Below are positions 9,048 to 26,705 of a DNA stretch of 26,705 nucleotides, piece after piece. Numbering within the stretch: position 1 is the first letter of the stretch; each line of letters starts with the position of its first letter. Source of the stretch: a virus (lineage: Duplodnaviria > Heunggongvirae > Uroviricota > Caudoviricetes). Both the position numbers and the translations under genes were made by a program. Below the pieces are notes generated by a model. That model made no database searches. It had not been told where the DNA came from and was given only the letters and a program-made list of their open reading frames with translations. The stretch is taken from IMG/VR virus record IMGVR_UViG_2872185964_000003, one strand, 5' to 3'.

Positions 9048-9102
9048 TGGAGCACCTCAAAAACACCATCATACACTAAATCAGTAAGTTGGCAGCATCA
9101 CC

Positions 9103-10810
9103 ATTCAACCCCATAACCATCACGAGCCGACCTGTAGGAAATGCCACCATTTTTATAATTCACACGGAATTGTACGGCAGGACAGCTACCAGCATTTATA
9201 TTAAAGTGAAGAATTAATGCAGATGCACCACCAATCAGGGCGTTATATGCACTACTATCCCAATTCCATCCAATGGATGTATCACCATTAACAGTATTAC
9301 CTGTTTGTCGGAGTGCAAATGCATTGACATTTTTGGCACTAATTGAAATATCGCTAGAACCATCAAAACCAACTCCAGCAATTTTTCGTGCTGTTTTCAG
9401 CTTTGTTGCAGTAGCGGCATTGCCGGACAGTTCCCCAGAAAGGCCACCGCTGAATGTTTGTCGATTGGTCCAGGTATTCGCTGTACTGAGTAACGGTATT
9501 TTCTCCCCGCTTGTGCCGAGTTCTCGTAAACCGAGGTATTCGATAACGGCAGCAACGGTCGATTTCGCAAGAATATCCCGCCCGACTTTTGTCAGGGTTG
9601 CCAGGCTGGCGACATCATTCCCCGTAAAATACGGAAACCTGTCTGCCGCAGTAGCAAGCCCGGCCAGCGCCGTCAGGGTGGCATCTTTCGGTTGCTTACC
9701 CGCAAGCGCGTTAGTCATGGTGGTCGCAAAATTCGGGTCGTTTCCCAGCGCCGCCGCTAACTCGTTCAGCGTATTCAGTGCGTCAGGTGACGAATCTACA
9801 AGGGCGGCAATCGCAGCCATAACGAAAGCCGTGCTTGCGATTTGGGTATTATTCGTTCCCTGTCGCGCAGTTGGCGTTGTTGGCGTTCCGGTCAGCGCAG
9901 GACTGTTTAAGGGCGCTTTCTTGTTCGTTTCATCCATTACCGCCTTAACCGCTTTCGATGTCGCGGCCAGTGTTTCAGACGTGCTGTTGGTGGCACTACT
10001 GAGCTGGACTATCCCTTTTTGTGCCGTCGTGGCGTCCTGAGCGGTATATTTTGCGTTAGCAAGGTCATACGCGGCCTTTACTGCTTTCGGCGTTGCAGCC
10101 TGCGTTTCAGACGTGCTGTTGGTGGCGCTACTGAGCTGGACAAGGCCTTTTCGCGTCGTGCTGGCATCCTGCGCAGTATATTTACCGTTAGCAAGATCAT
10201 ACGCGGCCTTTACTGCTTTCGGCGTTGCAGCCTGCGTTTCAGACACGCTGTTAGTGGCGCTACTGAGTTGAACAAAGCCTTTTGCGGTCAGCGAGGCGTC
10301 CGGGTGACGTCGTGACTGTTCATGCTCTTTCAGTTTGTCATCCACGTAATCCACTGTGGCCATCACCATGGTGTTGTCCACGGTAAGCGCCACGGTGGCA
10401 GTGCTGGATACGGTCAGAATGGTGCGAAATGTTTGTGCACGACCGGACCCTTCGGCAACGGCTGGCTTGTAACTTTCGGCAGTATTTCCCACCGCGATTA
10501 AATCGCCGTGCTCATCAAATACACCAATTTCCCGGATCCAGAATCCGCCCGTTTCAGGAGGAATAACCAGCTCCGCAATAATGCGGTTCTGATGTGTTGC
10601 GTCCAGGATGACGCGATTAACAGTATGTCGCCACACCTCATGCACCAGACGGGTCTGCTTACTGTCTGGTGTGGGCAACGTGCCGCCACCGTCGCCCACG
10701 GCCATATGAGTCAGGCGGACAGGCTTACCATCTGGCGCGGCTACCTGAGCTAATTTTTTTGCACCCGTATCGGTGATAATGGTTTTAAATTTTCGTGTTG
10801 TGGTACTCAT
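9103..10810 (-). pseudogene. H: Tail fiber protein (P2 gpH-like), C-terminus truncated by IS1
   Basis: N-terminus MSTTTRKFKTIITDTGAKKLAQ... is tail-fiber-like. The reading frame runs into the IS1 terminus, which supplies the final Trp codon and the TGA at 9100..9098. No gpG-like chaperone gene follows. Confidence 0.8.
9933..10328. repeat. Three tandem ~132-bp (44-aa) repeats inside the tail fiber gene
   Basis: Direct repeats with period 132 bp (for example TCATACGCGGCCTTTACTGCTTTCGGCGTTGCAGCCTGCGTTTCAGAC at 10065 and 10197), encoding ...VQLSSATNS.SET.AAT.KAVKAAYDLAN.KYTAQDA... Confidence 0.8.
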
Positions 10811-11342
10811 GCTTAATCGCCTGGATAAATGGTAATAACTTCACCGTCATAAGTTGCCGCCGCTGCGAAAATATCCCCGGAATTTCCTGAATGATATTCA
10901 GCCCTGTCATGTGGCGGCTGACCGGGCGGGCATCAGCAATCAACCGCTCCATTTCCAGATACATTTCCTCCGTCACGCCACTGTCCAGCGTGCCGACTTC
11001 AACGGTAAATGTTCCCGGTTCTCCGCCGAACTCCCACCACTCAGACACGCGAATGAGGTATCCCAGCGGCTCAATGGCCCGGCGCAGTGCGCTGATGGTC
11101 CCTTTGTGTCGGTGTATCAGCCATGCATCACGAATAACCTGTCGCTTTGTCTCTTCCGGCCAGTTGCGATCCCAGCGGTCAACGGAAAACGCCCAGGCGA
11201 GATAAGGCAGCAGATGCACCGGGCAGGTGTCCGGCGACCACAGCGTGTTGAGGTCTACCGGAATGTCTGTAATGCGTGTTCCGACGGCTTCGGCACAACG
11301 CATGAAATTGCTGGCTGATGGTGGTAACAACGAATTACTCAT
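10785..11342 (-). CDS. I: Baseplate protein (P2 gpI-like)
   Basis: ORF with conserved LWSPD.CP..LLPYLAWA.SVDRWD motif. Start placed at the MSNSLLPP Met; the upstream Met at 11375 is an alternative. Confidence 0.8.
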   Translation of the reverse strand: MSNSLLPPSASNFMRCAEAVGTRITDIPVDLNTLWSPDTCPVHLLPYLAWAFSVDRWDRNWPEETKRQVIRDAWLIHRHKGTISALRRAIEPLGYLIRVSEWWEFGGEPGTFTVEVGTLDSGVTEEMYLEMERLIADARPVSRHMTGLNIIQEIPGIFSQRRQLMTVKLLPFIQAIKHEYHNTKI

Positions 11343-12231
11343 TGCGTCCACCTTCGCTGATGGTGAATGACTCACAGCGCGCCGCCTGTATGTCGCTGAT
11401 GGCCATATTCTGTGTGGGTTCGATTATCTCCACGCGTTGCACACCGTGCACATGCAGTGCGGCAGCAATGGCGGACAACGCCACGTCCTGACCGATAAGC
11501 CCCTGCTCAGCCAGCCACTTCCTGAACGACGATTCAGCCGCGGCCAGAATAGGTTCGGATTCCGGGCCGGGGTAAAAGTACAGTTTTGCATTCAGCCGCC
11601 ATGTCACGATTCTGGCACTCTGTACGGTCAGGCGGTCGGCCACCGGGCGGGTATCCTCTGCATTCAGAACGGCGCGAACGGTATTAAGCAACGCCTCCGT
11701 TGCTGTGCCGTCGCCCTCAGTGGACAGGATGGAAACCGTCACGTTGGCCGGAGACGGGCTGATGGCCCGCGCATCGCGTACCAGACCGCTGGCGCTGCGT
11801 GCAAAATACTCGTATGCACCTGACGGGCCAGCAACACTCAGACCGTCATATGCCCGTTGCGCCCGTAGTCTCAGCGAGGTGTCACTTTCCATCACTGCAT
11901 CGGTGGTATCCGTTGCCGGAGTGATAACCAGGCGCTTTGTGTTCATATTGCCCGCGAGGTTGTCCAGGTCTGTCCCGGCGCTGTGGCTTAGCATGCAGGC
12001 GCGTGCACCCTCATTGACCCGCTGGCGTAACAGCATTTCACGAAACGACATGGTTTGAGCGATAACGTTAAGGGGTTCCGATTCCAGCTCCAGCGCGGCG
12101 GAAACGGCTTCACGCTGTTCGGCGGGATAGGACGCAATCATCATGGCCTTTGTGTCAGCCAGAATTGCCTCAAAGTCAGGCTCCGCGATGATGGCGGGTT
12201 CCGGTAACTGTGAAAGGTCAACGGCAGGCAT
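11335..12231 (-). CDS. J: Baseplate assembly protein (P2 gpJ-like), 298 aa
   Basis: Intact ORF, in P2 order between W and I. Confidence 0.85.
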   Translation of the reverse strand: MPAVDLSQLPEPAIIAEPDFEAILADTKAMMIASYPAEQREAVSAALELESEPLNVIAQTMSFREMLLRQRVNEGARACMLSHSAGTDLDNLAGNMNTKRLVITPATDTTDAVMESDTSLRLRAQRAYDGLSVAGPSGAYEYFARSASGLVRDARAISPSPANVTVSILSTEGDGTATEALLNTVRAVLNAEDTRPVADRLTVQSARIVTWRLNAKLYFYPGPESEPILAAAESSFRKWLAEQGLIGQDVALSAIAAALHVHGVQRVEIIEPTQNMAISDIQAARCESFTISEGGRNE

Positions 12232-12234
12232 GAT

Positions 12235-12585
12235 TTACTCCCTCAGCGTGATGGTTAATTCAACATTCTGCATGGTCTGCATGACAGTGCCCGACAGCGT
12301 CACCCCGGCGCGGCCTCCTGCCTTCCAGACAACGTCGATAGCGTCCAGGGCAATGCGGGGTTCCCATCGTGTCAGCGCAATCACGGCAGCACTCATGCAT
12401 TGCAGACGCGTGGTGTTATTCATGGGTTCGTCAATCAAATCAGGCACAAGGCTGCCATATTCCCGTCGCATAACCCGGCTTGCCAGCGGGGTGGTCAGGA
12501 TGTCCCTGACTGACTGTTTCAGGTGCTCCATATCGTTCAGGTTTCCCGTTCCGTCCGGGTTCATTCCTGTGTAGCGGGTTGTCAC
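12235..12585 (-). CDS. W: Baseplate wedge protein (P2 gpW / gp25-like), 116 aa
   Basis: Intact ORF; MTTRYTGMN...VMRREYGS resembles GPW/gp25-family lysozyme-like baseplate proteins. Confidence 0.85.
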   Translation of the reverse strand: MTTRYTGMNPDGTGNLNDMEHLKQSVRDILTTPLASRVMRREYGSLVPDLIDEPMNNTTRLQCMSAAVIALTRWEPRIALDAIDVVWKAGGRAGVTLSGTVMQTMQNVELTITLRE

Positions 12586-13162
12586 TGCGGGCCTCCTGTC
12601 GAATCGCTGCCACCTTTAACGCCACCGTGTTTATGCGTATGCACTGTGATGCCGTTTGAGGTGAAATTGCCGCCGCTGTGCGTGATATTGCCGCTCATCT
12701 TTCCCCCTTTTGTGACGTCAAGCGTCGCCGTTCTCAGAAGGTCTGTGCATTCCACGACGGGCGTATCCAGTGTCACGCTGACGGATGCCTGCAGGGTGGC
12801 TGTTTTCATGCCGCTGGCGCTCAGTGCGCCTGCGTCCGCGTCGTAGCGGAACACCGCGCCATCCGGCGCGCTGACCACGATTTCTTTCAGGCTTTTGCCG
12901 GGGCCGGAATGGCATCACTCCACAGGCTGCCAATTATCATGGCGGTTTCCGGGTTGCCGCCAATGCAGGCAATTACCACCTGTTCGCCTGGTGATGGCGG
13001 CAGCCACACATTGAAGGCTCCCGCGCGAGTGGTGTTCCAGCGCAGCCAACCTGTTTCCAGTTCGCCGCTGCGAACGCGCACGCGCCAGGACTTCTCATCA
13101 ACTTCAGAGATGATCCCGGTGCGGATGATATTGCTCAGTAGCCGCATGAGTTCTGCGCTCAC
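12582..13162 (-). CDS. V: Baseplate spike / assembly protein (P2 gpV-like), apparent -1 frameshift near 12885
   Basis: N-terminal ORF 12887..13162 and C-terminal ORF 12582..12878 are in different frames; the break is at an A/T run (A4 where A5 would restore ...PAPAKSLKEIVVSAPDG...). Confidence 0.75.
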
Positions 13163-13803
13163 CGTACAGCCTCTGCAATCCGGCCCAGCACCGTGTTATA
13201 AATCGGGCGCTCATCTGCCTGGCTGATACCCAGCAGCTCACGTACCGGGTAATCGGTGAAAATGCCCGGCGCAACCTGATCGCGCTCACCGAACTGATGA
13301 ACGCGTGCAATACGTGCGGCCACGCCGCTGTAACCCACCGTCACACCGGAAGCATCTGCACGGGCTTTCAGGTAGCGGGCGGTGCGCAGTTTTACGAACA
13401 TGGGGACGCGCTTTGTGCTGTCCTGGTTGATGCGCCGGGTGCGTATTTCCAGAAAGCGGTCGATGTCATCCCGGTAAAACGTGCGGATGCTGTTTTTATC
13501 CTCATCCCACCCGGTGATGGTTCGCCCGTATTTCCCCGTGTCGTGATGCCAGTTTTTCAGCGTGCGTGCTTCGTTATTCCAGATAAAGCGAATGCGCTCC
13601 TGTATCCGGGTTACGTGGCGTCTGCGTGGTGTCCATGCGGTCCCGTCCGGCGCTTTCTGTGACCGGATACGTGCCTGCTGGGCGCGGCGTAAATCCTGTG
13701 CCAGCTTTCTGGCGATGTTATTGATGGCCTGCTGATTCAGGCTGTCGCGGATGGCTTCAAAGGTTTCATCCACGCGAGTGAATGCCTTATCCATCGCTTT
13801 CAC
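13159..13803 (-). CDS. S: Tail completion / virion morphogenesis protein (P2 gpS-like)
   Basis: Contains ...LRRAQQARIRSQKAPDGTAWTPRR..., resembling the conserved core of gpS-family proteins; lies between R and V as in P2. Confidence 0.7.
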   Translation of the reverse strand: MKAMDKAFTRVDETFEAIRDSLNQQAINNIARKLAQDLRRAQQARIRSQKAPDGTAWTPRRRHVTRIQERIRFIWNNEARTLKNWHHDTGKYGRTITGWDEDKNSIRTFYRDDIDRFLEIRTRRINQDSTKRVPMFVKLRTARYLKARADASGVTVGYSGVAARIARVHQFGERDQVAPGIFTDYPVRELLGISQADERPIYNTVLGRIAEAVR

Positions 13804-14254
13804 CCCACGTCACATCCTGGAATACATGCGACCAGTCGCCTTCGGAAGATGGCAGGCGGGGTTTTGGCTCCAGCAGGTGTTCTGCCTGCGGTGTGCCCTG
13901 ACTGCTGCGCGTGATGCGAACGCGTTCCCGCAGGGGGAGCGTAAACAGGAGATCGGCGCTGTCATCGTCATTGATAACGGCGGAGAATTTGATGTCCTGA
14001 TTACGCTCAGGGTTGAGCAACAACTGTGGCTGATTTTCGGATAACCACGCCAGCAGCGGCAGCGTGAGGTCGTCCAGCTCCCCGGCGTAATCCATGACAA
14101 ACATCACCATCTGATAGCGGTAAACAAACGATGGGGTTTCTCCGGTCGTTTCAATGTTGCCGCTCTCCACGAAAATGGTGAATTTTTCCGGGTTAGCCTG
14201 ACACCATCGGCATGAACGGGTCATGGCTTCACGCAGGGAATCAGTTTTCAGCAT
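13787..14254 (-). CDS. R: Tail completion protein (P2 gpR-like), 155 aa
   Basis: MLKTDSLREAM...LPLLAWLSENQP resembles gpR; position matches P2 order. Confidence 0.75.
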   Translation of the reverse strand: MLKTDSLREAMTRSCRWCQANPEKFTIFVESGNIETTGETPSFVYRYQMVMFVMDYAGELDDLTLPLLAWLSENQPQLLLNPERNQDIKFSAVINDDDSADLLFTLPLRERVRITRSSQGTPQAEHLLEPKPRLPSSEGDWSHVFQDVTWGESDG

Positions 14255-14797
14255 GGTTGTTATCCTCGTTGTTCAGTCGTTGCAGCCTGCGCTGTTCCAG
14301 TAATTCAATGGCCCGTTTATCCGCGTTACAGGTTTCCAGTGCATCCAGAAGGCGGTCGCCCCATATACCGAGATTTCCCCATGTGGGAGTGTCAGGGAAG
14401 GGGGAGGCGTTACCGGTATGGTCAGCGTCTGCGGTATAAGCCGGACTGACGGCGCTGGCAGTGGCGCGTTCTGCGTGCCTGCGCAGCCTGTCAGTAAAAC
14501 GAGCGTCAGGCAAAGCGTGGGCGCATTCATCTTTTGCAATATCGTTGCGTAGCTGTTCACGTCTTACCTCTCCGTCCTGATTGCGTTGCTGATTTTCCAC
14601 GCGGAGTTGCGCCAGCACCTGCTGCATATCCTGTACCCGGCGCTGATGATATTCAGGGTGTCGGCGGTACTTTTCAGGGTGCTGGCCTGCGCTTCGTTTC
14701 TGGCGTTCTCCCGGCCCAGCGACCACGACAGACGCATGGATGTTCCCCATCCGGCAGTCAGAAGGAAAGCGACGCCAAGCGTGGGCCAGAGCTTCAT
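14241..14797 (-). CDS. lysB: Rz-like i-spanin (LysB-like), apparent frameshift near 14645
   Basis: N-terminal TM MKLWPTLGVAFLLTAGWG from ORF 14564..14941, and a coiled-coil C-terminal part (RRVQDMQQVLAQLRVENQQRNQDGEVRREQLRNDIAKDE) in ORF 14241..14750, one frame apart. Confidence 0.6.
14273..14560 (-). CDS. lysC: Rz1-like o-spanin lipoprotein (LysC-like) embedded in the lysB frame
   Basis: Lipobox LLTGC followed by a proline-rich region (APLPAPSVRLIPQTLTIPVTPPPSLTLP), nested in an alternative frame of lysB. The true start may be the internal Met at 14530. Confidence 0.6.
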   Translation of the reverse strand: MNSYATILQKMNAPTLCLTLVLLTGCAGTQNAPLPAPSVRLIPQTLTIPVTPPPSLTLPHGEISVYGATAFWMHWKPVTRINGPLNYWNSAGCND

Positions 14798-15186: not shown

Positions 15187-15506
15187 TCGTCCTTCTCCTT
15201 CACCCTGCGATTAAAGGCCGCAATAACCTTGTCGCGAGCTTTCTCTGCACCCATAAAACCGATTGATGCGCCGATAAACGTCACGGCATCTTCAGGAAAC
15301 CCGAAGAAGCGCAACGACCCGGCCACGGCCATGGCAAGAACGCCGCACGCCAGCGATCCCGTTACGGTCTGAACCAGTGTTCGTCCGTCATAAAGGCTCA
15401 TCAGCGCGGAAATGCTGACCGCCGCGCCTACTGCATACACCGTTGGCAGGTGGTCAAAGAGCCACGCAATAACCTGCTCTGTGATCCCTGTTTGAATGGT
15501 GCTCAC
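15183..15506 (-). CDS. Holin (107 aa, multiple TM segments)
   Basis: Small ORF with hydrophobic helices and a charged C-terminus (RRVKEKDE), immediately upstream of the endolysin with start/stop overlap. Confidence 0.7.
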   Translation of the reverse strand: MSTIQTGITEQVIAWLFDHLPTVYAVGAAVSISALMSLYDGRTLVQTVTGSLACGVLAMAVAGSLRFFGFPEDAVTFIGASIGFMGAEKARDKVIAAFNRRVKEKDE

Positions 15507-15708
15507 TGCTACTCCCCCACAACTGAATCATTTCTCGTTTCTTCTTCTCCGGCTCCGGCATCTCCACTTCCTGCCCGGCGTCCAGAAATACCTGCTGACA
15601 GAGTCCGGGGTTGGCATCCAGCACCTTTTCGGTGACGCCCTGCGTCGTGCCGTAGTACCGGAAACAGAGCGAATCCACGGTGTCGCCTTCCAGTGCCTTC
15701 ACTTTCAT
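15454..15708 (-). CDS. X: Tail protein X (P2 gpX-like, LysM-like)
   Basis: MKVKALEGDTVDSLCFRYYGTTQGVTEKVLDANPGL resembles gpX. The 3' end reads through into the holin start; a G6 instead of the observed G5 near 15495 would create the expected stop after ...IQLWGE. Confidence 0.7.
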   Translation of the reverse strand: MKVKALEGDTVDSLCFRYYGTTQGVTEKVLDANPGLCQQVFLDAGQEVEMPEPEKKKREMIQLWGSSSEHHSNRDHRAGYCVAL

Positions 15709-16202
15709 CAGCACAACTCCGCAAAGATTCGCGGGCGGCACAGAATGTCAGAGATGGCCCAGCTCACATCACGCCACAAATCCGATGTCTGTATATCCAG
15801 AGCGTCTGCCCGGCGGTCGCCCTTGTCCGTAGTGTCTGCATCACGATAACGCTCCAGAATCAGGGCGCGCGTGGCGGTATAAACAGCATTGCGCCAGTGC
15901 CAGAGATTGACGCTTTCTCCGTTAATTACGGGTGCCGGAACATCGGCCAGCGTCTGATGGCCAGCTGCCTGCTGTTCCTGCTGCCATGCTTCCAGCTCGC
16001 GGGTAACGTGTGCCACAGCCCCGGTGGCAGTATGCAGCAGGCGGGAGGTGGTCACGCGCCCCGGCAGTCGTACCGCCAGACGCAGCTCGCGCAGCACAAT
16101 ATCCGGCCAGAATGCACCCGCTGAAATGCGGGTATCGCCATCATCGGTATCGGTGATGTCGTCCTCTGCGGGTCCGGGTTCAGTTCTGGCAACCATAGTC
16201 AT
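15708..16202 (-). CDS. L: Head completion / stabilisation protein (P2 gpL-like)
   Basis: ORF after M in P2 order. Start placed at the Met preceded by AGGAG (16202); the ORF-track start at 16274 lies inside the upstream hairpin. Confidence 0.7.
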   Translation of the reverse strand: MTMVARTEPGPAEDDITDTDDGDTRISAGAFWPDIVLRELRLAVRLPGRVTTSRLLHTATGAVAHVTRELEAWQQEQQAAGHQTLADVPAPVINGESVNLWHWRNAVYTATRALILERYRDADTTDKGDRRADALDIQTSDLWRDVSWAISDILCRPRIFAELC

Positions 16203-16215
16203 GGGGTTCACTCCT

Positions 16216-16288
16216 GAAAAAAAATCGGGCGGTGGGTGCGCGGTGTAAACGGTCACGGAGTCAAACCGGAACACCGCGCACGCCGCCC
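16216..16288 (-). terminator. Strong GC-rich hairpin followed by a T8 tract between M and L
   Basis: Minus strand CGGGCGGCGTGCGCGGTGT...ACACCGCGCACCCACCGCCCG (about 18-bp stem) followed by ATTTTTTTTC, immediately before the L RBS. Confidence 0.5.
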
Positions 16289-16305
16289 GCTGACGGGGTC
16301 AGTCG

Positions 16306-17106
16306 TTAACCGCGCTTCGCCTTCTGCGTCGCGGTGGTTTTTCGTGTTGCAGGCTTCCGCGTTGTCTTTTTACTTTTGCTGCTTTCGTCCTGCGCCTGCT
16401 GTGCGCTGGCGTCTTCTGGTTCGGCTGCGGAATCGGCTTTTTTCAGGGCGCGGGAAAGGGTTGCAATCTCGCGTTTCACACCTGCGTTCGGGTTCAGGTG
16501 CATTGCTTCGCGCAGCAGCTTCAGTGACAGGGCCATGCTGTCCGCATCACTCAGGCCACGGCGGGCAAAGGCGCACGCTTTGCATAATTTGGCGCGCACT
16601 TCGTCCGGCATGTCCTGGTCGGTGACAATCTCCCGGAGGGTGTCCAGTGGTTCGATAAAGGCGGACAAATCCGCGTCGGCATCCGTCCCGGCCTGCGTCA
16701 GTACCGGATTACAGATTTCTTCGGTCAGTACCGTGGCAGCAGTACGGCCAAAGTTATCCGGCATGATGAGGTTGTGACGGACTACATACGCGCCGATACG
16801 CAGCGCAAGCGGAAGATCGCCACAGTCAATCGCCCACACCATCAGCGTGGCAATCACTTCATCCTGCTGCCCGCCGTCAGCCTCCAGCGTTCCCTCAATC
16901 CAGCCGGAAAAATCCGGCAACAACTCTTTTTTGATGGCGGCTTTCGCGCTTCTGGCCTGTACGCCCTTAAGCCGGGCCTGTGCCAGACGCAGACGATACA
17001 GCACCTCTTCATGCGCGGTACGCGCGGCGTGGTCCACGCCTTCATTCGCCCGGCCTGCGCGCTGTGCCATCACGTTCTGCCAGTGTTGTTGTGCAGGAGT
17101 AATCAT
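16306..17106 (-). CDS. M: Terminase small (endonuclease) subunit (P2 gpM-like), 266 aa
   Basis: Intact ORF between N and L with a basic, lysine-rich C-terminal tail. Confidence 0.8.
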   Translation of the reverse strand: MITPAQQHWQNVMAQRAGRANEGVDHAARTAHEEVLYRLRLAQARLKGVQARSAKAAIKKELLPDFSGWIEGTLEADGGQQDEVIATLMVWAIDCGDLPLALRIGAYVVRHNLIMPDNFGRTAATVLTEEICNPVLTQAGTDADADLSAFIEPLDTLREIVTDQDMPDEVRAKLCKACAFARRGLSDADSMALSLKLLREAMHLNPNAGVKREIATLSRALKKADSAAEPEDASAQQAQDESSKSKKTTRKPATRKTTATQKAKRG

Positions 17107-17151
17107 TTTTTCTCTCCGTTACAGGCGGGCATGATGCCCGCCGTGAGTTGA

Positions 17152-18192
17152 TTAGCTGTCGGCGAACTTCAGGCCAGTAACCATCGCGCACTTGCCATAG
17201 TCTTCAACGACATAAGCGTCATTGATGGACTGGTAGGTGGCGATGCGGTTGTATTCCGGCTCGTCTTTCATCAGGCGACGCATTGAACCTTTCTGCCAGT
17301 AAATCGACAGGTTGTTGAACGAGGTGATCAGCATCGTTGCATCCGGGAAGAACGGCGCAAGGAACACGCCCAGCCCGCCAATGGTGCGCGATGACAGGAT
17401 GAGCTGCCCGGCGAGTAATTCCGCATTGGGATTCTGGCCGCTGATGCTGTTCAGCACGGGCAGACGCAGCGAGTTAAACAGGTTGCGCCCCATAATCACC
17501 ACGAGGTCGTCAGCTTCCTTGTGCCATTCATCCAGCAGGGATGAACGCGCGTCCTGTACCAGTGCATCAGCGTTCGCATACTTACCCGCGTGCGCCACGG
17601 TGTTGTCCATGTTGCGGGAGGTCAGCGTCACGTCATTCATAACGCGTTCGCTGGCGTCGGTTCTGATGTGCTCCAGCCAGCCCACGTTAACGTCCTGAAG
17701 CAGCTTGTTGGTGCTGAAGTTGGACTCATCCGCGTGAGACGTGCCGTTGAAACCGATCATGATGCGGTCAAGCGCCACCTGTCGGGCAATCTGTGCGCTG
17801 ATGCGGGACTGAAAATCAGGGTGTGCCGACCAGGCATCAAGCTGCGGATACGAAATAAACGTGTCGTAGTTCACCTGTTCACACTGATATTTGCGGTTTT
17901 TCAGATCAACCACGTTATTCGGGTTACGGCGTTTTGTGCCGTCATAACTGGTATTCGTGCGCGCAATCGGTCCTGTGGTATCTAGGAGGATTTTTTCGCC
18001 TTTCTGGTCGGTCACGCCGATCACGTTATTTTTTTCGTAAATTCGGTACTTTCCTTTGAGGCGTTTTCAAAACGCTGCTGCACCGCGGGTTCGCGACACC
18101 AGTGCAGATACCGGGATATTATTAAGCGACGCCTGCTGCGCCATATAGCAACCCAGCTTGTTGCGGGTAATATCTGACATCACCAGATTCAT
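17152..18192 (-). pseudogene. N: Major capsid protein (P2 gpN-like) with in-frame TGA after codon 41
   Basis: ATG at 18192 with AAGGAG RBS. The frame reads MNLVMSDITRNKLGCYMAQQASLNNIPVSALVSRTRGAAAF-TGA(18069..18067)-KRLKGKYRIYEKNNVIGVTDQKGEK... in the same frame as ORF 17152..18024. Confidence 0.8.
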
Positions 18193-18215
18193 AAAAAATT
18201 TGCTCCTTTGTCTAA

Positions 18216-19085
18216 TCAGAAGTCGGCCAGCTGGTCGGAGGCTGCGCCCGTTGCGGTGAAGCGGTTCTGCGGATCGCCGTCCTGCGTGCGCAGTTTTTCC
18301 TTCAGTGCTGCCAGCTCTGTGGTCAGTGACGTAATTTTCTGGCGGTCCTGCTGATGGCGGGTTTCCAGCACATTAAAACGGTCGATAATGTCGGCCTGTG
18401 ACGTTGCGACGCCTTCCACCGCTTCCTGAATACGGGAAAAACTGGCGTCATCCGCTTTGCGGCCACGGCCAATAATCCCCATTACGCGGTTAAACCACTG
18501 GGTGCCTTCTTCCTGGCGTTGTTCTGCCATTTCGATGATTTCAGACTCGATGGCTTCGGAGATAAGCGGCGCTTCACCCTGGATACTGTTAAACGTCATC
18601 ACCGCCTGACGTTGCTGTGCCGTGAATTTCAGGCGCTCAGTGCCCAGGCTTGCCGGGGTGTCGGTCATCGCCAGCCCGACCAGATAGGCGCGCCCGTTAA
18701 CGGAGAACTGCGGGTGCAGTTCGATACTGGAATAGATTTTCTTGCCGTCCGCAACAAGCTGCTTCATGCGCTCGGTCGGTTCGATTTCTGCATACAGCGC
18801 AGTACGTCCGGCCAGCGGACCTTCCGTAATGTCTTCCGTACTCAGTGCGGTGACATCGCCCATTGCGGAAAATTCGCTTGACGGGCATGGCGAGAGATAG
18901 TGCTCAACGTTCACGCGGGCAGCGTAAACATCCGGGTTGAAGTTCTCGGCGGCTTCACGCAGATGCACCGGACTGATTTCACGGCCATCAACAGTTGATC
19001 CGGAGACAGCCACGCGAAACTTTTTGCGGGATGTCTTTTTTTCATTAGCCATAGTTTTTGCCCCTCTGACTGGTTCTTCAGTCAT
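18216..19085 (-). CDS. O: Capsid scaffolding protein (P2 gpO-like), 289 aa
   Basis: Intact ORF; ...GRAYLVGLAMTDTPASLGTERLKF... resembles gpO. First gene of the leftward capsid operon. Confidence 0.85.
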   Translation of the reverse strand: MTEEPVRGAKTMANEKKTSRKKFRVAVSGSTVDGREISPVHLREAAENFNPDVYAARVNVEHYLSPCPSSEFSAMGDVTALSTEDITEGPLAGRTALYAEIEPTERMKQLVADGKKIYSSIELHPQFSVNGRAYLVGLAMTDTPASLGTERLKFTAQQRQAVMTFNSIQGEAPLISEAIESEIIEMAEQRQEEGTQWFNRVMGIIGRGRKADDASFSRIQEAVEGVATSQADIIDRFNVLETRHQQDRQKITSLTTELAALKEKLRTQDGDPQNRFTATGAASDQLADF

Positions 19086-22487: not shown

Positions 22488-23077
22488 TCAGGTGTTATTT
22501 TTATCTGTCGTCAGTGGGCTAAACCATCCACAATTTACATCGCATGACTGATGCGTTCTGTCCTCGTGTTTCTCCTGCCACAATGCTTTTCCGCCAGCCT
22601 TTATGATGGCTCTTTCAACATCCCGCTCGTATCGCAAGGGCTGAAATACGTCATTAATGAAATATTCGCTTATGTCCGGAAGCGATACTGCAAAATTATT
22701 TGTTTGTTGCGCCGTCCTGCTATGCAGCAAAGCGGCATGCTTTAATGCGTCCTGTGCTTTCTGGAATTTAAGTGCATAGTCAGTGGCGATTTTTTCCAGT
22801 TCAGCGATTCGGTTGTCTTTGGTTTCCAGCCAATCAAGTAGCGCCAATACTTCAGGATCCCGACATCCAACACTGTTACGCGTGATTTTTCATAATGTTC
22901 GTCAGCAAGAGTTCGGCCAATTTTGAAATCTCCATCATCACCATAACCGGAGCAGGCATAAACAACCTGTGCTCCAGATATTCGCTGAATTGACATTTCC
23001 TCGCCGCAAATAGGGCATTTCGGTACTGGCACAGGTGAATAACGTTCACGTAATGCCTGATAGTTGATTTCGCTCAT
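22488..23077 (-). CDS. Hypothetical Zn-ribbon protein, apparent frameshift near 22885
   Basis: N-terminus MSEINYQALRERYSPVPVPKCPICGEEM...YACSGYGDD and a coiled-coil C-terminal part in a second frame. The break is at an A5 run; AAGGAG RBS upstream. Confidence 0.55.
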
Positions 23078-23456: not shown

Positions 23457-25531
<2,075 letters not shown>

Positions 25532-25535
<4 letters not shown>

Positions 25536-25857
25536 TTTTTCCAGAGGCGGTCGAACTCCGCCTTCGCAAAATAAGCGGAAGCCTGGCGAAGGATATCGTT
25601 ACTGCGGCGCAGTTCACGATTTTCACGTTCCAGCTCTTTCAGACGCTGACGTTCAGCGGTGGTGAGCCCGCCATCACCGCCTCCGGTATCCCGCTCATGC
25701 TGGCGTACCCAGACACGCAGAGTCTCCGGTGTACAGCCAATCTTTGGGGCAATGGAACAAATTGCCGCCCACTGTGAGTCATATTCGCCCTGACTTTCCA
25801 GAACCATACGAATCGCCCTCTGACGGACTTCGGGGAAAAACGAGTATTTTTAGTCAT
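25532..25857 (-). CDS. IS629 orfA, apparent frameshift near codon 9
   Basis: MTKNTRFSP at 25857 is in one frame and ...[24 protein letters not shown]... in another; the break is at TTTTCCCCG (C4). Confidence 0.7.
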
Positions 25858-25911
25858 CCTGTTTACCTCTTTCTCAGGGAGTTTAGTCTCCAGGATTCCC
25901 GGGGCGGTTCA

Positions 25912-26705
25912 GTGCTTATTGACTTGTGGTGGAAATACCACGGCCAGCTAATGAAGTCAGGGCATAACACGCGCCTTAAATTGCTGCGCTTGAGTGAAGC
26001 AATGGATGACCCGTGCGTGCATAAACTTAATACAACGATGCTCACCGAGCTACGTGTGTCCAGGATAGAGCAGGGGATACAGCCCAGCACCATAAATCGA
26101 GAGATTGGGGCGTTAAGCGCGATGTTTACCGCACTCATCTCATCCGGCCATTTTCTTAACGATAACCCCGTTCAAGGCCTTAAAGGAATGAAGGTTAAGG
26201 AGCGCGAAATGGGATATCTGAGTAAGTCTGAATGTGTTCAGTTGCTGGATGCACTGGCTGAAAATCCCGATGAACGACTGGCTGTCGAAATCCTTCTGTC
26301 GACCGGGCGCGATGGGGCGAGGTAGCGGCACTGGAGCAGCGCCGTGTTCTTCATTGTCGAATCACTTTTTCAAAAACGAAGAACAGCAAAAACCGTACCG
26401 TTCCTATTTCTGAAAGCCTGTTTGAAAAGATCAAAAAACGGGGCGGGAAACTGGTGTTTCCGACGCTGGATTATTCATTGGTTCGCGATGTCATCAAAAC
26501 GGTCGCACCTGATGTTCCTGACGGCCAGGCTGTTCATGCGCTGCACCACACCTTCGCCAGTCATTTCATGATGAACGGCGGCAATATTCTGACGCTCCAG
26601 AAAATTCTGGGGCACGCAAAGATTCAGACAACGATGATTTATGCCCATCTTGCGCCGGATTACCTGCAGGATGCGGTGAGGTTTAATCCACTAGGAGGTG
26701 CTTAA
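25912..26705 (+). pseudogene. int: P2-type tyrosine integrase, 5'-truncated by IS629, one apparent frameshift near 26307
   Basis: Begins at the IS629 boundary (...LIDLWWKYHGQ...) and ends ...HALHHTFASHFMMNGGNILTLQKILGHAKIQTTMIYAHLAPDYLQDAVRFNPLGGA with the conserved R, H-x-x-R and Tyr. About 60 N-terminal residues are missing. Confidence 0.85.

What the first reader, a model, noticed from the sequence alone, without database searches (positions are those of the whole stretch)
9103..10810. Tail fiber gene with three 44-aa tandem repeats, C-terminally truncated with stop codon donated by IS1
The receptor-binding distal part of the fiber and the downstream chaperone gene are absent. The last codons span the IS1 junction, with the Trp codon and TGA formed by the IS1 terminus. 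The internal 132-bp tandem repeats (9933-10328) are a recombination-prone fiber shaft motif.
Basis: seen in the sequence. Interest (0 to 1): 0.4.

Follow-up and report, generated by a model that had tools for sequence, protein, structure and literature searches.

The report
IS1-truncated tail fibre in dead prophage
This is the stump of a phage tail-fibre gene in a defective P2-like (P88-type) prophage, left when an IS1-associated 6.9-kb deletion removed the fibre tip, its chaperones, the DNA invertase that switches tips and several tail genes; it is ordinary prophage decay.

Summary
A 570-codon ORF (window 9098-10810, minus strand) encodes a P2-gpH-type tail fibre: an N-terminal collar domain followed by three 44-aa Phage_fiber_2 repeats. 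It runs into the left end of a complete 768-bp IS1 (8335-9102). The last native base is 9103, and IS1 supplies the GG of the final Trp codon and the TGA.

Full-length homologues (99% identical) are 661 aa, so 92 C-terminal residues are missing.

IS1 has no target-site duplication, and its other end abuts a tail-tube gene. Relative to an intact prophage at the same chromosomal site, 6,880 bp are replaced: the tube 3' end, gpE/E', tape measure, gpU, a Gin-type DNA invertase, an alternative fibre tip and both fibre chaperones.

The fibre belonged to a Mu-G-segment-type invertible host-range switch. One orphan gix-like site survives inside the gene (9521-9546), and the lost tip is of the Mu S' type.

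The same junction occurs in two other assemblies. One has only two repeats, so copy number either varies or collapses in assembly.

Nothing here is new in kind. Interest is low.

The parts
9098..10810 (-). Truncated tail-fibre ORF of 570 codons plus stop. Codons 1-569 are native. Codon 570 (TGG) and the TGA at 9098-9100 are completed by IS1.
   Evidence: tblastn of the 661-aa full-length relative covers its aa 1-569 at 99.1% identity without indels.
10352..10795 (-). N-terminal collar/baseplate-attachment domain (PF12571, aa 6-153).
   Evidence: E=2.4e-53
9899..10294 (-). Three tandem 44-aa Phage_fiber_2 repeats (aa 173-304). The repeat is detectable at nucleotide level over 9942-10283.
9521..9546 (.). 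Orphan gix-like crossover site for a DNA invertase, TTCTCGTAAACCGAGGTATTCGATAA, lying inside the fibre gene (codons for IEYLGLRE). It marks the boundary between the constant and invertible-variable parts.
   Evidence: It is the only copy in the window. It matches Mu gix at 22 of 26 positions and sits at the same place in the gene. In the intact relative its inverted partner lies next to the invertase gene. Fibres with other tips diverge exactly here.
9104..9520 (-). Retained proximal part of the variable (Mu S'-type) fibre region, about aa 431-569. The distal 92 aa are missing.
8335..9102 (-). Complete 768-bp IS1. insA is 8772-9047 and insB is 8350-8853, both on the minus strand. The left end (IRL) abuts the fibre gene. 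There is no 9-bp target duplication: the flanks are gaaggacgg and attcaaccc.
7874..8334 (+). Tail-tube (FII) pseudogene, lacking its last 15 codons at the other IS1 junction and carrying frameshifts.
   Evidence: tblastn gives aa 1-155 of 170 in four frame pieces. The indels at about 8064 and 8253 are shared with L007, while the one at 7989 is specific to the window.
10785..11375 (-). gpI baseplate gene immediately upstream of the fibre. Its apparent 3' extension into the fibre start comes from a 1-nt homopolymer deletion at about 10875 that L006 and L007 lack.

Best explanation
The window carries a defective P88-like (Peduoviridae, Xuanwuvirus) prophage beside ihfA/pheT.

Its tail-fibre gene originally had four sections: a P2-gpH-type N-terminal domain, three Phage_fiber_2 shaft repeats, a constant shaft, and a receptor-binding tip. 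The tip lay on a Gin-type invertible DNA segment of about 2.7 kb. That segment held two alternative tips, each with its own Tfa chaperone, as in the Mu G segment.

An IS1-associated deletion then joined a point 15 codons before the end of the tail-tube gene to a point 92 codons before the end of the fibre gene. It could have arisen in two ways: intramolecular transposition of one IS1 (adjacent deletion), or homologous recombination between two directly repeated IS1 copies. Either way, one IS1 remains in place of 6,880 bp.

What is lost: the distal Mu-S'-type tip, both chaperones, the second tip, the second crossover site, the invertase, gpU, the tape measure and gpE/E'.

The remaining ORF reads into the IS1 left end and stops at once. 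Its product could not be completed or trimerised, because the C-terminal tip and the Tfa chaperone are gone. No tail could be built around it either. It is therefore a pseudogene in a dead prophage.

Shown here: the anatomy, the extent of the deletion, the homologies, and the presence of the same structure in independent assemblies. Inferred: the mechanism of the deletion and the loss of function.
For: Collinearity and extent of the deletion:
- Compared with E. coli GDSC2BY4G (NZ_CP136025.1), window 1728-8334 matches L004 5434-12047, and window 9103-22482 matches L004 18928-32328.
- IS1 therefore replaces L004 12048-18927.
- tblastn finds no trace in the window of gpE, E', tape measure, gpU, recombinase, the alternative tip or either Tfa.

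Evidence that this was more than a simple insertion:
- There is no target-site duplication.
- The window holds a single IS1.

Full-length relatives:
- They are 661 aa and 99% identical over aa 1-569.

The invertible switch in relatives:
- Inverted 26-30-nt sites lie 2,652 nt apart in L001.
- The relative's recombinase has Resolvase and HTH_7 domains and matches Mu Gin structures 4M6F and 3UJ3 at E about 1e-100.
- The relative's Tfa is 97% identical to Mu U'.
- The tip's last 165 aa are 88.5% identical to Mu S' and match PDB 8JU3.

Closest phages:
- Escherichia phages 520873 and 503458 (98.8%) and P88, all Xuanwuvirus, share the layout fibre-Tfa / Tfa-tip / invertase.

The structure is real:
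- The same fibre-IS1 junction is in IMG/VR contigs L006 and L007.
- L007 matches window 1-14412 end to end, including both junctions.

Literature:
- The Mu G segment and its S/U and S'/U' host-range switch are described in PMC4406740.
- Tfa binds the distal fibre to ensure folding and trimerisation (PMC9608196).
- C-terminal regions of the P88 fibre determine receptor recognition (PMC5285337).
Against: - No ancestor with an IS1 at only one of the two sites was found. Neither junction is present in 5,426 complete E. coli genomes, in the GTDB representatives or in metagenome contigs. The route to the deletion is therefore unresolved.
- Loss of function is inferred. Nothing tests expression or folding.
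- The window assembly has many 1-nt homopolymer errors, so its base-level quality is imperfect. The fibre ORF itself has no indels relative to its relatives.
Confidence: 0.93

Rival explanations
1. A simple IS1 insertion into an otherwise complete fibre gene, with the rest of the gene and the chaperone lying just beyond the IS1.
For: IS1 commonly inserts into prophage genes. An independent IS1 sits directly 3' of the homologous fibre gene in E. coli EC5931.
Against: The DNA beyond IS1 is a tail-tube gene on the opposite strand. There is no 9-bp duplication. The fibre 3' end and the Tfa genes are absent from the whole 26.7-kb window.
Confidence: 0.01
2. An assembly artefact: the genome really has two IS1 copies flanking the 6.9-kb segment and the assembler collapsed them, and/or the repeat number is wrong.
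For: The window shows systematic homopolymer undercalls typical of an unpolished long-read consensus. A sibling assembly, L006, has two rather than three repeats, and its joint falls in a 48-nt run that is identical between units 1 and 2, which a short-k-mer assembler could collapse.
Against: L007, an independent assembly without those homopolymer errors, has the identical single-IS1 structure with both junctions and three repeats. Long reads span 768 bp and 396 bp easily. All intact Xuanwuvirus relatives have three repeats.
Confidence: 0.03
3. The gene is a naturally short, complete fibre variant, and the IS1 merely lies downstream.
For: None beyond the intact reading frame.
Against: The final Trp and stop codons lie inside the IS1 terminal repeat. 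Homologues 99% identical continue for 92 more residues. The truncated protein is a singleton cluster among about 15 billion proteins.
Confidence: 0.005
4. The remnant is retained because it is useful. For example, a fibre stub or partial baseplate might be expressed as an exclusion or decoy factor, or loss of the tail module might have been selected to disarm the prophage.
For: The 1.7-kb fibre ORF is free of indels in three assemblies, although neighbouring genes carry frameshifts.
Against: Codon changes look relaxed: 2 non-synonymous and 0 synonymous between the truncated alleles, 5 and 1 against the intact relative, compared with 2 and 5 between two intact alleles (the numbers are tiny). 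ogr, the late-gene activator, is interrupted by an IS2-like element, so late-operon expression is doubtful. One lineage has lost a repeat and another 3.4 kb.
Confidence: 0.03

Closest known systems
Tail fibre of P88-like phages (Peduoviridae, Xuanwuvirus): Escherichia phages 520873, 503458 and P88, and prophages of many E. coli, including ST131 strains.
   Same: 98.8-99% identity over aa 1-569 to phage 520873 and the GDSC2BY4G prophage. P88 is 94% identical over aa 1-460 and carries a different tip. The three repeats are the same. So is the gene order gpV-W-J-I-fibre, converging on sheath-tube-E-T-U, with an invertase and an invertible tip cassette in between.
   Different: Here the last 92 aa and everything from there to the 3' end of the tube gene are replaced by IS1.
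Phage P2 gpH / gpG
   Same: An N-terminal PF12571 domain, PF03406 repeats, a position after gpI, and about 70% identity over aa 7-460. P2 H even keeps the EYLGLQE relic at the old crossover position.
   Different: P2 H has two repeats rather than three, a different (fixed) tip and, to my knowledge, no invertase. In P2, again from general knowledge, the tail genes FI-D lie in the same orientation downstream rather than convergent.
Phage Mu G segment (S/U, S'/U', gin, gix); the P1 C segment and e14 P segment are of the same kind.
   Same: The crossover site is 22/26 identical to gix and lies at the same place in the fibre gene. The intact relative's invertase matches Gin at E about 1e-100, its Tfa is 97% identical to U', and its tip is 88.5% identical to the S' C-terminus (PDB 8JU3). 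The biology is described in PMC4406740.
   Different: The N-terminal two thirds of the fibre are P2-like, not Mu-like. In the window only one crossover site and part of one tip survive, so no inversion is possible.
IS1-mediated adjacent deletions and IS-driven prophage decay in Shigella and E. coli
   Same: A single intact IS1 without a target duplication bridges two formerly distant points. Other insertion sequences (an IS2-like element and IS3-family elements) lie in the same prophage.
   Different: Nothing distinctive. This particular junction was found only in this genome and two IMG/VR contigs.

Membership tests
P2 gpH-type tail fibre | N-terminal tail-collar fibre domain (PF12571) | tested here: met
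   aa 6-153, 180.6 bits against a cutoff of 23
P2 gpH-type tail fibre | Phage_fiber_2 (PF03406) repeats after the N-terminal domain | tested here: met
   3 stretches, 194 bits. P2 gpH has 2.
P2 gpH-type tail fibre | Encoded directly downstream of the baseplate genes W-J-I | tested here: met
P2 gpH-type tail fibre | Complete C-terminal receptor-binding tip followed by a Tfa chaperone gene (PF02413) | tested here: not met
   92 aa are missing. No Tfa is found in the window.
Gin/Cin/Pin/Hin-type invertible tail-fibre switch | 26-bp crossover site inside the fibre gene at the constant/variable boundary | tested here: met
   Window 9521-9546 matches Mu gix at 22/26.
Gin/Cin/Pin/Hin-type invertible tail-fibre switch | Second site in inverted orientation | tested here: not met
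   Only one match in the window at up to 3 mismatches. The partner site is present in the intact relative.
Gin/Cin/Pin/Hin-type invertible tail-fibre switch | Adjacent serine DNA invertase gene | tested here: not met
   No tblastn hit in the window. It is present in relatives.
Gin/Cin/Pin/Hin-type invertible tail-fibre switch | Alternative tip and chaperone genes in opposite orientation | tested here: not met
   Absent from the window. Present in relatives.
IS1 | A 768-bp element with imperfect terminal inverted repeats and insA/insB | tested here: met
IS1 | A direct target duplication of about 9 bp, as expected for a simple insertion | tested here: not met
   The flanks are gaaggacgg and attcaaccc. 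This points to a deletion or recombination event and does not count against the element being IS1.

The most novel reading that the evidence does not exclude
The truncated fibre stub is not simply dead. It could be kept or expressed in this lineage, for example as an exclusion or decoy protein. Alternatively, the 3-to-2 repeat difference between strains that share the same IS1 junction may be real. In that case it would show the 132-bp shaft repeats contracting by unequal crossover in a gene no longer under selection, giving a natural read-out of the neutral instability of fibre repeats.
Probability: 0.05. Interest if true: 0.3.

Novelty: already known. Interest (0 to 1): 0.1.

Why it matters
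It matters little beyond annotation. The ORF should be labelled a pseudogene, as an IS1-truncated tail fibre. The prophage should be labelled defective: it has no tape measure, no complete tube and no invertase, and ogr is interrupted.

Two practical points follow:
- The window's assembly carries many homopolymer undercalls that create false frameshifts in neighbouring phage genes. Pseudogene counts for this genome would therefore be inflated.
- The fibre's repeat number differs between assemblies that share the same junction. Copy number in such genes should not be trusted from short-read assemblies.

Tried and rejected
- I looked for an ancestral state, meaning an IS1 at only one of the two sites. 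80-nt junction probes against 5,426 complete E. coli genomes gave no true junction match. The hits at up to 96% coverage are IS1 plus chance extension at 85-91% identity.
- Exact junction patterns found nothing in the GTDB representative genomes or in metagenome contigs.
- In IMG/VR they found only two contigs of the same lineage. The order of events therefore stays open.
- I tried to name the source organism. The exact protein occurs once, in NCBI GCA_002950295.1 / CP026872.1, as a singleton cluster without a name, and no paper mentions the accession. My recollection that this accession block holds Shigella genomes is unverified. The density of IS1, IS2-like and IS3-family elements fits it.
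- I treated the stop codon supplied by IS1 as possibly remarkable and rejected that. The IS1 left end has stops in all three frames within 9 codons, read directly from the sequence.
- I considered an inversion instead of a deletion and rejected it. Both flanks keep the orientation and order of the intact prophage, and only one IS1 is present.
- I did not run structure prediction or the large protein searches, because close full-length homologues and a solved structure (8JU3) already answered the question.

Full report
**1. The observation**

The minus strand carries an ORF at 9098-10810 (570 aa, ATG start). Pfam recognises an N-terminal tail-collar fibre domain (PF12571, aa 6-153, E=2.4e-53) and three copies of the Phage_fiber_2 repeat (PF03406, E=1.7e-58).

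Tandem Repeats Finder reports a 132-nt period at 9942-10283: 2.6 copies, 86% matches, score 481. In protein terms the units are aa 173-216, 217-260 and 261-304 (window 9899-10294). Units 1 and 2 are 89% identical. Unit 3 keeps the core GxVQLSSATNSxSET and then diverges.

Downstream lies one complete IS1 (8335-9102). It has both terminal repeats and insA and insB. The minus strand at the junction reads GGG GTT GAA T|GG TGA TGC TGC C. Base 9103 is therefore the last native base, and the Trp and stop codons are completed by the IS1 end. This detail is correct but not special: the IS1 left end contains a stop in every frame within nine codons, read directly from the sequence.

**2. Is the gene truncated, and by how much?**

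- A megablast of 8000-11000 against 5,426 complete E. coli genomes gave many matches that begin exactly at window 9103 and run on, in those genomes, into a longer "tail fiber protein" gene.
- In the closest genome (strain GDSC2BY4G, 99.6% DNA identity) the gene is 1,986 nt, or 661 aa, and is followed by a tail fibre assembly gene.
- The window protein aligns to aa 1-569 of that protein without indels at 99.1% identity.
- Ninety-two residues (14%) are therefore missing. No homologue ends at 569.

**3. The real extent of the event**

- The 9 bp flanking IS1 differ (gaaggacgg on the left, attcaaccc on the right), so this is not a simple insertion.
- The other IS1 end abuts a tail-tube gene on the plus strand that lacks its last 15 codons.
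- A blastn of the whole window against 35 kb of the GDSC2BY4G prophage is collinear. Window 1728-8334 matches L004 5434-12047, and window 9103-22482 matches L004 18928-32328. IS1 therefore replaces 6,880 bp.
- That interval is annotated as the tube 3' end, a gpE-like protein, GpE', the tape measure, a gpU-like tail protein, a recombinase, a second fibre tip ORF, two tail fibre assembly genes and the 3' end of the fibre gene.
- tblastn with each of these proteins finds nothing in the window.
- Both flanks keep their original order and orientation, and only one IS1 is present. The event is therefore a deletion, not an inversion.
- Whether it arose by IS1 intramolecular transposition or by recombination between two IS1 copies cannot be decided, because no intermediate was found.

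**4. What kind of fibre it was**

The closest phages are Escherichia phages 520873 and 503458 (98.8% over aa 1-569) and P88 (94% over aa 1-460). All three are Peduoviridae of the genus Xuanwuvirus. P2 gpH is about 70% identical over aa 7-460.

In these relatives the fibre gene is followed by this series: Tfa, an oppositely oriented Tfa, an oppositely oriented tip ORF, and a DNA invertase.

Evidence for an invertible switch:
- In the intact relative a pair of inverted sites lies 2,652 nt apart. One is inside the fibre gene and the other is next to the recombinase gene.
- The site inside the gene is present in the window at 9521-9546 and occurs only once.
- It matches the Mu gix sites (TTCCTGTAAACCGAGGTTTTGGATAA, read from the Mu record at the annotated G-segment boundaries) at 22 of 26 positions. 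It lies at the same place in the coding sequence: IEYLGLRE here and IQNLGLQE in Mu.
- Fibres with different tips (EC5931, P88, P2) are near-identical up to EYLGL and diverge immediately after it.
- The relative's recombinase has Resolvase and HTH_7 domains and matches the Gin crystal structures 4M6F and 3UJ3 at E about 1e-100.
- Its Tfa is 97% identical to Mu U'.
- The last 165 residues of its fibre are 88.5% identical to Mu S'. Mu S' is PDB 8JU3, which is Mu gp52 according to PMC11821841.

The fibre is therefore a mosaic. It has a P2-type attachment domain and shaft, and a Mu-G-segment-type switchable tip that was locked in the S'-like orientation.

In Mu, S/U and S'/U' give the G(+) and G(-) host ranges. 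[quoted passage not shown]

**5. Consequences (inferred)**

- The window retains about 139 residues of the variable part but lacks the distal 92, which correspond to Mu S' residues about 397-488.
- Tfa proteins bind the distal part of the fibre and are needed for folding and trimerisation (PMC9608196, citing the Mu Tfa work).
- C-terminal regions of the P88 fibre determine receptor recognition (PMC5285337).
- With the tip and both chaperones gone, the stub should not fold or bind a receptor. The tape measure, gpU, gpE/E' and the end of the tube gene are also gone, so no tail can be made in any case.
- The invertase and the partner site are lost, so the surviving crossover site is inert.
- ogr, the late activator, is split by an IS2-like element with a 5-bp duplication (window 401-1727).
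- Codon changes hint at relaxed constraint: 2 non-synonymous and 0 synonymous between the truncated alleles, 5 and 1 against the intact relative, and 2 and 5 between two intact alleles. The counts are too small to carry weight.

**6. Is it an artefact?**

The exact 570-aa protein occurs once, in NCBI GCA_002950295.1 (CP026872.1, 4.71 Mb).

The fibre-IS1 junction is also present in two IMG/VR contigs from other assemblies:
- L007 matches window 1-14412 end to end at 99.88%. That span includes both IS1 junctions, the IS2-like element and three repeats.
- L006 ends inside IS1 and has a 526-aa fibre lacking exactly one 132-nt unit. The joint falls within a 48-nt run that is identical between units 1 and 2. 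This could be a real unequal crossover or a short-read collapse, and reads are needed to tell.

All intact Xuanwuvirus fibres examined have three repeats, and P2 gpH has two.

The window differs from L007 by nine 1-nt deletions, all in G/C runs. It differs from the intact relative by about twenty 1-nt deletions, most of them in G/C homopolymer runs. This looks like long-read consensus error. It explains several apparent frameshifts, in gpI, gpV, lysB and probably in the terminase and portal genes. Two tube frameshifts are shared with L007 and are probably real.

None of this touches the fibre ORF, which has no indels.

**7. Verdict**

The locus is an IS1-generated stump of a Mu-type switchable, P2/P88-type tail fibre in a decayed prophage. 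Every component belongs to a well-described class, and similar IS hits in the same module occur elsewhere: IS1 in EC5931 and IS5 in OZ121069. Novelty: already known. Interest: low.

Noticed in passing
window 2591, 4862, 6496, 6575, 7989, 10875, 12900, 14400, 14636, 15514, 19198, 19816, 20850, 21121, 21698, 22046: There are single-base deletions relative to close relatives, most of them in G or C homopolymer runs. Nine of them fall within window 1-14412 and are absent from the sibling assembly L007. They look like long-read consensus errors and create apparent frameshifts in gpI, gpV, lysB/lysC, terminase gpP, portal gpQ and the cargo ORF.
   Followed up: partly
window 401-1727: An IS2-like IS3-family element (301-aa OrfB with HTH_21/rve/rve_3 domains) is inserted in the ogr late-activator gene. 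It has a 5-bp duplication relative to the intact prophage.
   Followed up: partly
window 2062-5176 (-); intact copy at L004 5765-8884: A 1039-aa ORF lies between ogr and gpD, a cargo position in this prophage family. It has no Pfam or PADLOC match. RefSeq labels it 'MFS transporter', which seems doubtful. Its function is unknown.
   Followed up: partly
L006 (IMGVR_UViG_2751185958_000006) 6027-6039 and 10431-12011: This sibling assembly shares the fibre-IS1 junction but lacks window 15212-18571 (gpX to part of gpO). It also has a fibre with only two repeats, having lost exactly 132 nt.
   Followed up: partly
window 23995-26325: Two IS3-family transposase ORFs (23995-24591 and 24645-25535) cut the ParM-like gene at 24062. 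An N-terminal fragment of a phage integrase lies at 25729-26325. The early region of the prophage appears to be largely gone.
   Followed up: no
window 22488-23077: Two overlapping Ead/Ea22-like ORF fragments sit where the intact relative has a PAPS-reductase-domain pseudogene. This is a variable cargo spot between the portal and partition genes.
   Followed up: no
L002 (E. coli EC5931) 4348-5749; hit H7 (NZ_OZ121069.1): There are independent IS hits in the same module elsewhere. In EC5931, IS1 lies immediately 3' of the fibre gene, with both Tfa genes missing and the alternative tip truncated. In OZ121069, an IS5 lies within the fibre region.
   Followed up: no
L008 (phage P2) gpH aa 377-383: P2 gpH keeps the EYLGLQE motif at the position of the Mu-type crossover site, although I do not know of an invertase in P2. 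This looks like a relic of an invertible ancestor.
   Followed up: no
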